From Podarcis tiliguerta (lineage: Eukaryota), in NCBI GenBank assembly GCA_965153285.1, contig OZ229116.1: a stretch of DNA of 64,000 nucleotides. One strand, 5' to 3'. This document shows positions 34,701 to 37,700 of this stretch, in pieces. The position numbers were made by a program. Numbering within the stretch: the stretch's first letter is position 1; each line of letters begins with the position of its first letter.

Positions 34701-37700
34701 GCCATACATCCGGAATTTCCCAGACATATCCGGGATTCATCTGTAGAAAATAGCGTCTGGGCAGAATTCTCAGAAACCAGTTAAAATGTCCTGAAAAACC
34801 TGGGCATATGGCAGCCCATATCAGAAGTGTTGGAATTTCATTTTGGGGGGAGATTTTGCAAAACAACAACAACAACCCACCCCTGGTCTGCATGATGATG
34901 CAAAACATTATAATGGACAGGTACACACCTGTCCATTTCCATACGATTAGAACCTTGTGTTCCCTGCTGGCAATTGGGCAACTGTTTGTTGGAATGTCTA
35001 AAATACCCTGTGGTTATTACTTTTACACTGTTGACACCAGAGAGTAACCTGTTAGGTTCCGAAGGTATTTAAGAACTAGTGGCAAGTGCCCATCACAGAG
35101 ATTTGCCTCTGGGCAGGTTAAAGTTGGGAAATGGCTGGAGTCTCACTGGTACTGAGCTTTGTAGTGCACTCAGAACCTATATCCCTCCAGATGCTGCTAG
35201 ACTACAATTCCCATCATCCATGTATGTAGACAATTATGGTTGGAGCTGATGGGAGTTGCAGTCCAACAACATCTGGAGTGCCACAGGTTTCCTGTCCCTG
35301 CTATATAAAAAAAGATAAGGGCCAATGCAATAGACCCAGCTTTGGATCTTCTGGGTTCCAGTAACACTGTACTAGCATTCAGTGGCAAATAGCTGTCAGC
35401 TCAAAGGCTGTGCCAGAAGCCTGCATTCAAGAAAATCTTGGAGCAAGTTTGGCAGAAGTAATAGTTCACACAGAGCCCCCATTTTCTCACACACCAGCCT
35501 GCTATGACAGCTCCCCTGCATTAACATTTTAATAAAAGAAATATATAGAAATAATAGAGCTAATCTTAAGTCAATAAAACCCACCCAAACCTTTTATGCT
35601 CATTGAGCGGAAAGCATGTGGTTGTTGAAGGCCATTAAAGAGAAAGGAAACTTGCCACAAGAACCGAAGCATTCAATTAACCCCATGAGGTCCCAAACTG
35701 ACTAGAATCACTATTGTGCTCTGGGGTAAAGGGTTTCTGAAATACTAAAAGGGATGTCTCGAAAAACAATTTCCTCCACATCTAATGAATGGGCTGGAGC
35801 AAACCCTTTTCATAATTCTCCACTCCCAGTTTTCAAGAGTGGGAGAATGGCAGCAATGGGGGAAGCTAGAGGAGAATAAAGAGGAAGGGATTGGGAGGGG
35901 GCCACGGAATCAGGTAGTTTTGCTTAAGGGGTCATTTGTGGCATCTACAAAGTTTGCTTTATGTCAAATATGGGAAGTTCACACACACACCCCTATTTCA
36001 CATTTCCCTTTCCCCACAGTAATTACCATGTGGGCTTGAGCATCCAGATTCTAATATATCTCTTCATGTGCTCCAGTTCAGTGCAAGGGCTCTGATAACT
36101 CTTCAGCACCTGGATAGCTCAGCTGGTTAGATAGTGGGGCTGATAATGCCAAGGTTGCAGGTTCAATCCCCGTAAGCGACAGCTGCCTATTCCTGCAGTG
36201 CAGGGGGTTGGACTAGATGATCCTTAGGGTTCCTTCCAACTCTATGATTCTCTTTCGCCACAGTCAACACCATTGCATCATGCTACGAACCACTGATCCT
36301 GAAACATTTTCATACAGATTAGTTGTTAGGAACATTTGACTGCCCAGATGTCGCTGAACCACAGCTCCCATCATCCCTGGCCATCAGCCATGCTTGCTAG
36401 GGCTGATGTAGTACAGCAACATCTGGAAAGCTAAAAGTTCCCCACTCCTGTGTTAGAAGAACCAAAGAAGGCCTCAGATTCAATATACCCATCTTGTGTA
36501 TGGCTTTTTCTCCACACCACCCACCTAACCCCACTTTAGCAAGGTACTTCATTATTACATGAATAGAATGAAGATTATCACTATCATTATTACTATAAAA
36601 TGTATTGTTAAAATTCTTATAGCTCAATCTGAAAAGAAATATTTGAAATAGAAAAGGTATTCTGAGTTTTAAATTTAACAAGCGTTATGTTAAAGCCTGC
36701 AAAATACATTTAAGTGCATTGAAAACTGGATAGGCTATTATGAAAGAAAATAAAAGGTGCTAACTAAATTGTCTACATTTGGTTGTCTCAGTTATTGACT
36801 TATTTTGTCTTCATGATTGTATAGTAACACAATGCAAACAAGCTAAGCTTCTCGCACAGTACTGAACAATAAGTATTGACAAAAATGACTGCGGTTGCCA
36901 CACCACATTCTATTTGCTATTTTGTAAGAATGTTCGCAATCAAATTCTCTTTTCGCAAAAGAAAATGACTGCCTCACAGATGGATAAGTAAAGCCTTAGC
37001 CAACCTCCCAACCTTCAAATAATCAAAAGCTGTTACAAGTTTCAACAAGCTTTTCTTCAAGCTGTAAGATGTTGCTAGAAGTAGAGTGAAGCTTTTATAG
37101 GAGTACTGAATTGTTCAGCATTCAGATCTGCCTTCCGTTGAACAAAAGCTTTCGATAAGAAGTACTGCAGGAGGCCTGGAATCCTAGGACTTGAACCCCA
37201 AATTTAGGAGGTCAGAGGGTAGATTCCTCTCCCACCCCTGAGGAACATTGTTTGCTTGTAAATATGTGTAGTACGCGTGCTTCGCGTGTACGAGGCCACG
37301 GGTTCAATCCCCGGCATCTCCAGGTGTTTTGGGACGTGGGTGGCGCTGTGGGTTAAACCACAGAGCCTAGGACTTGCCGATCAGAAGGTTGGCTGTTCGA
37401 ATCCCCGCGACAGGGTGAGCGCCCGTTGCTCAGTCCCAGCTCCTGCCAACCTAGCAGTTCGAAAGCACGTCAAAGTGCAGGTAGATAAATAGGTACCACT
37501 CCGGCCGGAAGGTAAAGGGCGTTTCCGTGTGCTGCTCTGGTTTGCCAGAAGTGGCTTAGTCATGCTGGCCACATGACCCGGAAGCTGTCTGCAGACAAAC
37601 ACCAGCTCCCTCGGCCAATAAAACGAGATGAGCACTGCAACCCCAGAGTCAGTTACGACTGGACCTAATGGTCAGGGGTCCCTTTACCTTTACCTATGTG

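What the first reader, a model, noticed from the sequence alone, without database searches (positions are those of the whole stretch)
37275..37292. Possible fossil tRNA modifications in the retrocopy: A37>G and truncation at G26
Seen: the anticodon loop reads TT-CGC-G-T with G at 37286 (position 37), and the copy begins at G26 (37275; C25 is ambiguous with the TSD). Established: eukaryotic tRNA-Ala genes encode A37, which ADAT1 deaminates to inosine (later m1I37). Inosine is reverse-transcribed as G, and m2,2G26 (TRMT1) is a strong RT block. Inference: the template had already been edited and G26-methylated while still carrying its 3' trailer, so the insertion may record a germline pre-tRNA maturation intermediate. 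The change also creates a CpG, against the usual mutational direction. Caveat: this is a single base, and the copy has at least one other apparent substitution (A49).
Basis: partly seen in the sequence, partly recalled or inferred. Interest (0 to 1): 0.7.

Follow-up and report, generated by a model that had tools for sequence, protein, structure and literature searches.

The report
Pre-tRNA-Ala piece fused to lizard SINE
A SINE insertion in a lizard- or snake-type genome carried along the back half of an unprocessed alanine tRNA, and one base of that copy may record RNA editing, but a single locus cannot prove it.

Summary
37275-37322 is 48 nt that number exactly as tRNA positions 26-73 of a tRNA-Ala(CGC)-like sequence. 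G sits at position 37 (37286), A49 is mismatched with G65, and the copy starts right after a target-site duplication (TSD).

The context matters more. The piece has no CCA. It runs into an 8-nt trailer ending in TTTT (37323-37330), which abuts the first base of a full-length Sauria-type SINE (37331-37694). A perfect 12-bp TSD flanks the whole unit. So this was one Bov-B/RTE-type retrotransposition event. The reverse transcriptase most likely jumped from the SINE RNA 5' end onto the 3' end of a nascent pre-tRNA-Ala.

G37 as an inosine footprint is plausible, at roughly even odds:
- Human trailer-bearing pre-tRNA-Ala reads show G37 but not T37.
- A>G occurred at only 1 of 53 A sites in the co-inserted SINE.
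- The parent gene could not be examined.

The m2,2G26 block is poorly supported. G26 itself is copied faithfully. Yeast and frog data place dimethylation mainly after end-processing. Position 58 shows no change.

This is a new member of a known kind, of modest interest. The window is squamate-like, not human.

The parts
37251..37253 (+). TTT lying 10-12 nt upstream of the first TSD base; the T-run of the Tn-TA insertion signature described for Sauria SINEs
   Evidence: Sequence; signature as described in PMC13295347, sections 3.2-3.3
37263..37274 (+). 5' target-site duplication TATGTGTAGTAC. It starts with T(A). Its last C is ambiguous with tRNA C25.
   Evidence: only 2 matches in the window at up to 1 mismatch
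37275..37322 (+). 5'-truncated copy of a tRNA-Ala(CGC)-type transcript, positions 26-73. It holds the anticodon arm, variable loop, T arm (B-box-like GGTTCAATCC), the acceptor 3' strand with U70 and discriminator A73. There is no CCA.
37275..37275 (+). G26, the first unambiguous base of the copy, copied as G
37286..37286 (+). G at tRNA position 37, where eukaryotic tRNA-Ala genes are reported to encode A. It is a candidate I37 footprint or an ordinary A>G change.
   Evidence: for the base; for A37/I37
37298..37298 (+). A49, mismatched with G65 (37314). This is an apparent substitution, or a variant of the source gene.
37307..37307 (+). A58, read as A, so no misincorporation at the m1A58 site
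   Evidence: m1A58 misincorporation and early timing
37323..37330 (+). 3' trailer GGTGTTTT, ending in a Pol III terminator-type T4 exactly at the junction with the SINE
37331..37694 (+). Full-length Sauria-type tRNA-derived SINE. It starts GGGACGTGGG and ends CCTTTACCTTTACC.
   Evidence: Alignment with two other window copies; 3' repeat (ACCTTT)n
37695..37706 (+). 3' target-site duplication TATGTGTAGTAC

Best explanation
The flagged bases lie in the 5' part of a single chimeric retrocopy with this layout: 5' TSD, then pre-tRNA-Ala(CGC) positions 26-73, then the 8-nt trailer ending in TTTT, then a full-length Sauria SINE ending in (ACCTTT)n, then the 3' TSD.

Mechanism:
- Shown: the layout, the single TSD pair and the insertion-site features.
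- Inferred: a Bov-B/RTE-clade LINE enzyme nicked the target and primed on the SINE RNA tail. It copied the SINE to its 5' end, then jumped end-to-end onto the oligo-U 3' end of a nascent, unprocessed (CCA-less) pre-tRNA-Ala. It copied that RNA back to position 26/25, where synthesis ended and the cDNA was joined to the upstream target end, with at most 1 nt of microhomology.

G at position 37 has several possible causes, and inosine is the most likely single one. ADAT1 makes I37, which is read as G, on a precursor that Trm5 has not yet methylated (m1I would read as T). I put this at about 0.45. Post-insertion A>G mutation and a G37 variant in the source gene share most of the rest.

The 5' end at 26 is best taken as ordinary 5' truncation, or run-off on a precursor cleaved at the 25/26 hinge. 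It is not a footprint of m2,2G26.

The confidence figure below refers to the one-event chimera and the unprocessed-precursor template.
For: Structure:
- A perfect 12-bp direct repeat sits exactly at both outer borders and nowhere else in the window.
- No repeat flanks the SINE alone. Its upstream neighbour is the trailer and its downstream neighbour is the TSD.
- The SINE 5' end matches the 5' ends of two other TSD-flanked copies to within 0-3 nt.
- The trailer ends in T4 at the junction, and the CCA is absent.

Insertion machinery:
- The 3' end is (ACCTTT)n-like, the TSD begins with T, and TTT lies 10-12 nt upstream. This is the pattern reported for Sauria SINEs moved by Bov-B.

Mechanism precedents:
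- Non-LTR reverse transcriptases (RTs) perform template jumping (abstract).
- Template-switch chimeras and pre-tRNA retropseudogenes are documented for L1 (passages).

I37:
- I37 occurs only in eukaryotic tRNA-Ala. Inosine reads as G and m1I as T. Human leader/trailer-bearing tRNA-Ala(AGC) reads show G37 without T37.
- Arabidopsis tRNA-Ala(CGC) has genomic A37 that is modified.
- A>G occurred at 1 of 53 A sites in the co-inserted SINE. Only 15 of 282 sites where the other two copies agree carry a change specific to this copy, and at least 6 of those are CpG-decay transitions.
- A second tRNA-Ala-like SINE head in the window has A at the equivalent place.
Against: - It is a single locus. The parent gene could not be looked up, because no eukaryotic genome collection was available. 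A source gene with G37 is therefore not excluded.
- A49 and the G30-U40 pair hint that the source, or the copy, is not pristine.
- Ordinary substitutions did hit this insertion: 15 of 282 sites.
- CpGs decayed in the SINE part, with 8 of 13 retained. A G37 that forms a CpG had perhaps a 45-60% chance of surviving.
- The fraction of trailer-bearing precursors that carry I37 is unknown to me. It is in a supplementary figure of PMC4446420, and supplements are closed. The data are for isoacceptor AGC in human cultured cells, not CGC in a squamate germline.
- A read-through transcript from a tRNA gene lying just upstream of a SINE source copy would give the same layout as a template jump.
- Only 1 of the 3 TSD-flanked Sauria copies in the window has a TSD that starts with T. 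The signature match is therefore weak evidence.
Confidence: 0.75

Rival explanations
1. The template was a trailer-bearing pre-tRNA-Ala that already carried both I37 and m2,2G26. Inosine gave G37, and dimethyl-G26 stopped the reverse transcriptase and set the 5' end.
For: - The copy ends within one nucleotide of position 26.
- Traces of m2,2G are reported on the unprocessed frog tRNA-Tyr precursor.
- The I37 part is supported as set out in the best explanation.
Against: - G26 is itself in the copy and is correct. A hard stop leaves position 27 as the last copied base, and read-through gives 10-80% misincorporation.
- In S. pombe m2,2G26 is seen on end-processed but not nascent pre-tRNA, and La binding to the U-tail lowers it.
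- The yeast scheme places Trm1 action just before export of end-matured pre-tRNAs, and m1A58 on the initial transcript.
- Frog oocytes show m1A58 early and full m2,2G only after end trimming. A58 shows no change here.
- On my own estimate, about 8 of roughly 80 possible breakpoints lie next to a known blocking modification. A hit is therefore not rare.
Confidence: 0.07
2. Nothing about RNA modification is recorded. G37 is an ordinary post-insertion A>G transition, or it was already G in a slightly degenerate source gene. The 5' end is random truncation.
For: - The insertion has accumulated changes: 15 of 282 comparable SINE sites, including one A>G.
- The tRNA piece has at least one other oddity, A49.
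- 5' truncation is the rule for LINE-mediated copies.
- The parent gene is unseen.
Against: - The per-site A>G rate in the same insertion is about 2% (1 of 53).
- The change falls on the one adenosine of tRNA-Ala known to be deaminated.
- It appears in the form (G, not T) reported for trailer-bearing precursors.
Confidence: 0.45
3. Read-through instead of template jump. A tRNA-Ala gene lay immediately upstream of a SINE source copy. Pol III ran through the T4 terminator, and the dimeric transcript was retrotransposed and 5'-truncated at position 26.
For: - It gives the same order and orientation under one TSD pair.
- T4 is a minimal terminator (my own knowledge).
Against: - It requires a SINE to have landed with its exact first base against the last T of the terminator.
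- Neither of the 2 other full-length copies in the window carries the extension.
- Abutting the acceptor RNA's exact 3' end to the donor's exact 5' end is what end-to-end jumping predicts (inference).
Confidence: 0.12
4. The acceptor RNA was already a 3' fragment. An unmodified, trailer-bearing pre-tRNA was cleaved at the 25/26 hinge, and the reverse transcriptase simply ran off its end. The breakpoint would then reflect absence, not presence, of G26 modification.
For: - Fragments consistent with cleavage of a leader/trailer-bearing pre-tRNA-Tyr at 26/27 are reported when the hinge modification is missing.
- The authors attribute tRNA parts in L1 chimeras to pre-existing tRNA fragments.
Against: - The reported case is a different tRNA, a different position (27) and a human knockout line. 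The authors say those fragments need confirmation by sequencing.
- There is no direct evidence at this locus.
Confidence: 0.15
5. Two unrelated events: a decayed in-situ tRNA gene remnant, or an earlier tRNA retrocopy, next to which a SINE later inserted.
For: SINEs are frequent in this window: 3 TSD-flanked Sauria copies plus other SINE heads.
Against: - The 12-bp TSD encloses both parts.
- The SINE alone has no flanking repeat.
- The junction is base-exact.
Confidence: 0.02

Closest known systems
Template-switch chimeric retrocopies made by LINE-1 (U6/L1 and the rarer tRNA/L1 chimeras)
   Same: Two unrelated RNAs are copied in one TPRT event under one TSD pair. In U6/L1 the small Pol III RNA sits 5' and in sense.
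   Different: - Here the machinery is RTE/Bov-B type, with no poly(A), an (ACCTTT)n tail and a Tn-TA site.
- The 3' partner is a full-length SINE rather than a 5'-truncated L1.
- The 21 reported tRNA/L1 chimeras mostly carry antisense 5' halves (positions 1-37). This one carries a sense 3' two-thirds with its trailer.
Tailless and pre-tRNA retropseudogenes (Schmitz 2004, as cited in Noll 2015 and Doucet 2015)
   Same: Unprocessed nuclear tRNA precursors serve as templates for LINE reverse transcriptase.
   Different: Tailless copies are 5'-complete, 3'-truncated and primed internally by L1. This copy is 3'-complete, 5'-truncated and rides on a SINE.
I37 on precursor tRNA-Ala seen by RNA sequencing (Torres et al. 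2015, PMC4446420)
   Same: G, not T, at position 37 in molecules that still carry leader or trailer.
   Different: That is direct cDNA sequencing in human cultured cells, for isoacceptor AGC. Here it would be a single germline DNA copy in a squamate, for anticodon CGC, with the parent base unverified.
SINE birth by fusion of a tRNA-derived head to a LINE or SINE 3' part
   Same: A tRNA sequence is joined upstream of a retroposon body by RT template switching (conclusion passage; listing of the passerine SINE papers).
   Different: This copy lacks tRNA positions 1-25. It therefore lacks the A box and is unlikely to be transcribed as a new SINE.

Membership tests
Eukaryotic cytosolic tRNA-Ala(CGC)-derived sequence | 7-nt anticodon loop with U33 and CGC at 34-36, closed by a 5-bp stem | tested here: met
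   The loop is TTCGCGT and the stem forms 5 of 5 standard pairs.
Eukaryotic cytosolic tRNA-Ala(CGC)-derived sequence | G3:U70 alanine identity pair and discriminator A73 | tested here: inconclusive
   U70 (37319) and A73 (37322) are present. G3 lies in the missing 5' part.
Eukaryotic cytosolic tRNA-Ala(CGC)-derived sequence | T arm with a conserved T loop (B box) and a 5-bp stem | tested here: met
   The string GGTTCAATCC is present and 4 of 5 stem pairs form; A49 is mismatched. The T arm aligns to a tRNA-clan model.
Eukaryotic cytosolic tRNA-Ala(CGC)-derived sequence | A at position 37 in the gene | tested here: not met
   The copy has G. This is the anomaly under study. The parent gene could not be tested.
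Unprocessed Pol III pre-tRNA as template | No CCA after the discriminator; a genomic trailer ending in a run of at least four T | tested here: met
   A73 is followed by GGTGTTTT. The CCA positions of the model are gapped.
Sauria SINE moved by Bov-B (RTE clade) | Homology along the whole length to other Sauria-type copies, and an (ACCTTT)n 3' end | tested here: met
   Mean column identity to two window copies is 87%. The element ends CCTTTACCTTTACC. The family name is recalled and is matched to the 3' repeat given.
Sauria SINE moved by Bov-B (RTE clade) | Tn-TA site: the TSD starts with T, with TTT about 10 nt upstream | tested here: met
   T is at 37263 and TTT at 37251-37253. Only 1 of 3 window copies has a TSD starting with T.
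One-event template-switch chimera | A single TSD pair encloses both parts, both parts are in the same orientation, and no repeat flanks either part alone | tested here: met
One-event template-switch chimera | The junction joins the acceptor RNA's true 3' end to the donor RNA's 5' end | tested here: met
   T4 abuts GGGACG, which is the 5' end shared by the other copies to within 0-3 nt. The true RNA ends are inferred.
RT footprint of m2,2G26 | cDNA ends one base before the modified base, so the copy starts at 27, or there is misincorporation at 26 | tested here: not met
   The copy starts at G26 (or C25), and position 26 reads G.
RT footprint of m2,2G26 | The breakpoint recurs in independent retrocopies | not testable with these tools
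   No eukaryotic genome collection was available. The window holds no second tRNA retrocopy of this type.
RT footprint of I37 (ADAT1) | Gene A37 appears as G in the copy (T would indicate m1I) | tested here: inconclusive
   G is present. The parent base is unknown.
RT footprint of I37 (ADAT1) | Excess of A37>G over background A>G across independent copies | not testable with these tools
   Only the local background could be measured: 1 of 53 A sites.

The most novel reading that the evidence does not exclude
This insertion is a germline DNA snapshot of a nascent, U-tailed pre-tRNA-Ala caught after ADAT1 deamination (I37) but before Trm5 methylation, 3' trimming and CCA addition. An RTE-clade reverse transcriptase captured it when it jumped from a SINE RNA. 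If so, pre-tRNA/SINE chimeras across squamate genomes would form a natural archive of the modification state of germline tRNA precursors (I34, I37, and misincorporations at 9, 26 and 58) reaching back millions of years.
Probability: 0.4. Interest if true: 0.45.

Novelty: new member of a known kind. Interest (0 to 1): 0.3.

Why it matters
If G37 is an inosine footprint, ADAT1 acted on a tRNA-Ala(CGC) precursor in a reptile germline before end-processing. Chimeric retrocopies could then be mined as a historical record of RNA editing on Pol III precursors in species where no RNA data exist.

The underlying biology, I37 on trailer-bearing precursors, is already known from human RNA sequencing. Chimeric retrocopies made by template switching are also well known. 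The gain would therefore be a method and a nice example, not a new principle.

The locus also gives a clean example of an RTE/Bov-B-type enzyme joining a full-length SINE to the exact 3' end of another Pol III transcript. This is the kind of event proposed to create new SINE heads.

Tried and rejected
Sequence tools that gave little:
- ARAGORN on the window found 0 tRNAs.
- Rfam at E up to 10 on 36500-38500 gave no tRNA match at the piece, only a 15-nt tmRNA fragment hit.
- Free-energy folding of 37275-37330 gave a non-cloverleaf structure with z-score -0.43. This says little for a tRNA lacking its 5' third, so the arms were checked pair by pair instead.

Readings considered and rejected:
- Origin from the tRNA-Ala-like SINE head at about 58300-58368. 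The two share only the T arm and acceptor (19 of 22). They differ in the anticodon arm and downstream sequence, and the SINE head has no terminator after the acceptor.
- Two independent insertions, rejected on the TSD layout.

Not informative:
- CpG retention as a clock for G37. The SINE part keeps 8 of 13 CpGs where both other copies have CpG (18 of 40 by the looser count), and the tRNA piece plus trailer holds 6 CpGs. The parent's CpG count is unknown.

Literature that could not be reached or found:
- Gogakos et al. 2017 (human pre-tRNA modification by hydro-tRNAseq and La PAR-CLIP) is not held. I saw only its reference entry.
- Two searches for prior reports of tRNA-modification footprints in genomic retrocopies found none that address it by title or abstract start (13 papers, 12 listed; 18 papers, 12 listed).
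- A search for ADAR-edited retrotransposon fossils did not retrieve the paper I recall.

Not used: protein tools, structure tools and the bacterial, phage and plasmid DNA collections do not bear on this locus.
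Full report
**What is at the coordinates.**

The interval 37275-37292 is the start of a 48-nt stretch (37275-37322). Counted back from the discriminator, this stretch fits tRNA positions 26-73 with no extra or missing base.
- The anticodon stem 27-31/39-43 forms 5 of 5 standard pairs, one of them G30-U40.
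- The loop reads TTCGCGT. U33 is present, CGC sits at 34-36, and G is at position 37 (37286).
- The T stem forms 4 of 5 pairs. A49 at 37298 faces G65.
- The T loop is TTCAATC with A58 at 37307.
- The acceptor 3' strand CATCTCC carries U70, and the discriminator is A.

A 5'-cut covariance search of 52 nt gives a weak match in the tRNA clan: the alanine-tRNA-like end of the tmRNA model, at 12.1 bits and E 8e-4, far below gathering. It aligns the T arm and the acceptor strand and leaves the CCA positions empty. ARAGORN and the untruncated Rfam scan do not call the piece, as expected for a copy without its 5' third.

**The context changes what the object is.**

After A73 comes GGTGTTTT (37323-37330), a trailer that ends in a Pol III terminator-type T4. 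The next base, 37331, is the first base of a full-length tRNA-derived SINE that runs to 37694 and ends CCTTTACCTTTACC.

Two other TSD-flanked copies of this SINE are in the window, at 6217-6562 and 40860-41224. Their 5' ends coincide with 37331 to within 0-3 nt.

I recognise the family as the Sauria SINE of squamates. The name is recalled, but the 3' repeat matches the (ACCTTT)n given for Sauria SINEs in PMC13295347, of which I read sections 3 and 4.1.

A perfect 12-bp direct repeat, TATGTGTAGTAC, lies at 37263-37274 and 37695-37706 and nowhere else in the window at up to one mismatch. It encloses the tRNA piece, the trailer and the SINE together. Nothing repeated flanks the SINE alone.

The TSD begins with T, and TTT lies 10-12 nt upstream (37251-37253). 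This is the Tn-TA pattern that paper reports for Sauria SINEs mobilised by Bov-B. The match is weak evidence, since only 1 of the 3 TSD-flanked copies in this window has a TSD starting with T.

**How it most likely arose.**

Shown: one insertion event, the order and orientation of the parts, an unprocessed precursor as template for the 5' part (trailer present, CCA absent), and a base-exact junction between the end of the T-run and the start of the SINE.

Inferred: target-primed reverse transcription by an RTE/Bov-B-type enzyme on the SINE RNA, followed by an end-to-end jump from the SINE 5' end to the oligo-U 3' end of a nascent pre-tRNA-Ala, and termination at 26/25.
- Template jumping is an established activity of non-LTR reverse transcriptases and depends on non-templated addition (abstract of PMC8857657).
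- Chimeras under one TSD pair are well known for L1 (passages of the 2025 preprint 10.1101/2025.02.02.635956; PMC4476161).
- Pre-tRNAs are known templates of LINE enzymes.

A read-through transcript from a tRNA gene sitting exactly in front of a SINE source copy would give the same picture. I rate it lower because it needs a base-exact coincidence, and because neither of the other two full-length copies here has the extension.

**G at position 37.**

For the inosine reading:
- PMC4446420 (passages read) states that I37 occurs only in eukaryotic tRNA-Ala, that inosine is sequenced as G and m1I generally as T, and that human tRNA-Ala(AGC) reads overlapping leader or trailer show significant G37 but not T37. 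A trailer-bearing copy with G, not T, is exactly that state.
- PMC6874348 (passages) shows genomic A37 and m1I-type substitution in Arabidopsis tRNA-Ala(CGC) and (TGC), so the CGC isoacceptor is a substrate at least in plants.
- The SINE that arrived in the same event gives a local background. Of 282 sites where the other two copies agree, 15 differ in this copy. At least 6 of those are CpG-decay transitions by context, and only 1 of 53 A sites became G.
- A tRNA-Ala-like SINE head at about 58300-58368 has A at the equivalent place.

Against the inosine reading:
- It is one base.
- The parent gene is unseen, because no eukaryotic genome collection was on hand.
- A49 shows that the piece or its source is not pristine.
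- CpGs decay here (8 of 13 retained in the SINE part), so a G37 that makes a CpG would survive only about half the time.
- The share of trailer-bearing precursors with I37 is in a supplementary figure I could not open.

Taking that share as 2-15% (my assumption), a 2% mutation background and a 2-3% chance of a G37 source variant (my assumption), the inosine reading comes out between about 25% and 70%. I use 0.45. A>G is still an ordinary transition.

**The 5' end at G26.**

- A blocking base leaves the preceding template position (27) as the last one copied, yet G26 is in the copy and reads G.
- When reverse transcriptases pass m2,2G26 they misincorporate in 10-80% of reads (PMC4697793).
- The yeast scheme in PMC10275265 (figure legend) puts m1A58 on the initial transcript and Trm1 just before export of end-matured pre-tRNA.
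- The discussion of PMC11482778 summarises frog-oocyte work: pseudouridine 55, the position-54 methylation and m1A58 appear early, only traces of m2,2G appear on the unprocessed precursor, and full modification follows leader and trailer removal.
- A58 shows no change in this copy. That is mild evidence that the template was barely modified.
- A single extra base added without template cannot be excluded as the origin of the G at 37275. It would match G26 by chance one time in four.

The same preprint reports fragments consistent with cleavage of a leader/trailer-bearing precursor at 26/27 when the hinge modification is missing. This suggests the opposite reading, run-off on a cleaved, unmodified precursor, as a rival. 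Plain 5' truncation with at most 1 nt of microhomology (the shared C) is the simplest account.

**Comparison with what is known.**

The object works like the U6/L1 type of template-switch chimera. It differs in several ways:
- the machinery is RTE-type, with no poly(A);
- the 3' partner is a full-length SINE;
- the tRNA part is a sense 3' two-thirds with its trailer, whereas the 21 reported tRNA/L1 chimeras mostly hold antisense 5' halves.

It is not a tailless retropseudogene, since those are 5'-complete and 3'-truncated. It resembles the fusions proposed to give rise to new SINEs. But it lacks positions 1-25, and so the A box, and is probably inert.

Recording of A-to-I editing in retrotransposed DNA is something I recall for ADAR-edited elements. 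I could not retrieve a paper on that. Two searches for tRNA-modification footprints in genomic retrocopies found nothing that addresses it. These searches cover only the held open-access library.

**What stayed unchecked.**
- Supplementary Figure S5 of PMC4446420 is closed.
- Gogakos et al. 2017 is not held.
- The closed collections (metagenome and viral contigs) would not bear on this locus.

**Housekeeping.**

The window is squamate-like and I do not take it for human. Grounds: Sauria-type SINEs, GC 41.7% and CpG observed/expected 0.26. The N run at 60740-60872 was left untouched.

**Verdict.**
- The solid result is a one-event pre-tRNA-Ala/Sauria-SINE chimera (confidence 0.75).
- The I37 footprint is a reasonable but unproven reading (about 0.45).
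- It is a new member of a known kind, with interest 0.3.

Noticed in passing
window 58300-58368 (+), continuing to about 58480: Head of a different SINE family with a tRNA-Ala-like T arm and acceptor (19 of 22 identical to the chimera's). Its anticodon-loop-like TTTCGCATG has A at the position-37 equivalent. It is followed by SINE body, not by a terminator.
   Followed up: partly
window 59159-59216 (-): The only Rfam match above gathering in the whole window: tRNA model RF00005, 31.6 bits, model positions 8-63. It is followed by repeat-like sequence, so it looks like the tRNA-derived head of yet another SINE rather than a gene. ARAGORN does not call it.
   Followed up: no
window 6217-6562 (+), TSD GCCTAGAGCA at 6207-6216 and 6563-6572: A full-length Sauria-type SINE copy that starts AGGACG and has a short 3' end (CCCTTTA). 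Its TSD starts with G, not T.
   Followed up: partly
window 40860-41224 (+), TSD ACATTTTTGG at 40850-40859 and 41225-41234: A more divergent Sauria-type copy with three extra bases (GAT) before the shared GGGACG start. These may be non-templated addition at the 5' junction or a subfamily difference. It carries the same roughly 10-nt internal segment (TCTGCAGAC...) as the chimera's SINE, which copy 6217 lacks.
   Followed up: no
window about 5690-5760 (-): A Sauria-like tRNA-related head only (3 mismatches in the 21-nt probe). It is followed by unrelated sequence, so it is a truncated or interrupted copy.
   Followed up: no
window 60740-60872: A run of 133 N (assembly gap or masked stretch), left untouched.
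   Followed up: no
window 37899-37962 (-): A weak SNORD37-like match (22.7 bits against a gathering score of 45, E 0.21) about 200 nt downstream of the insertion. It is most likely chance.
   Followed up: no
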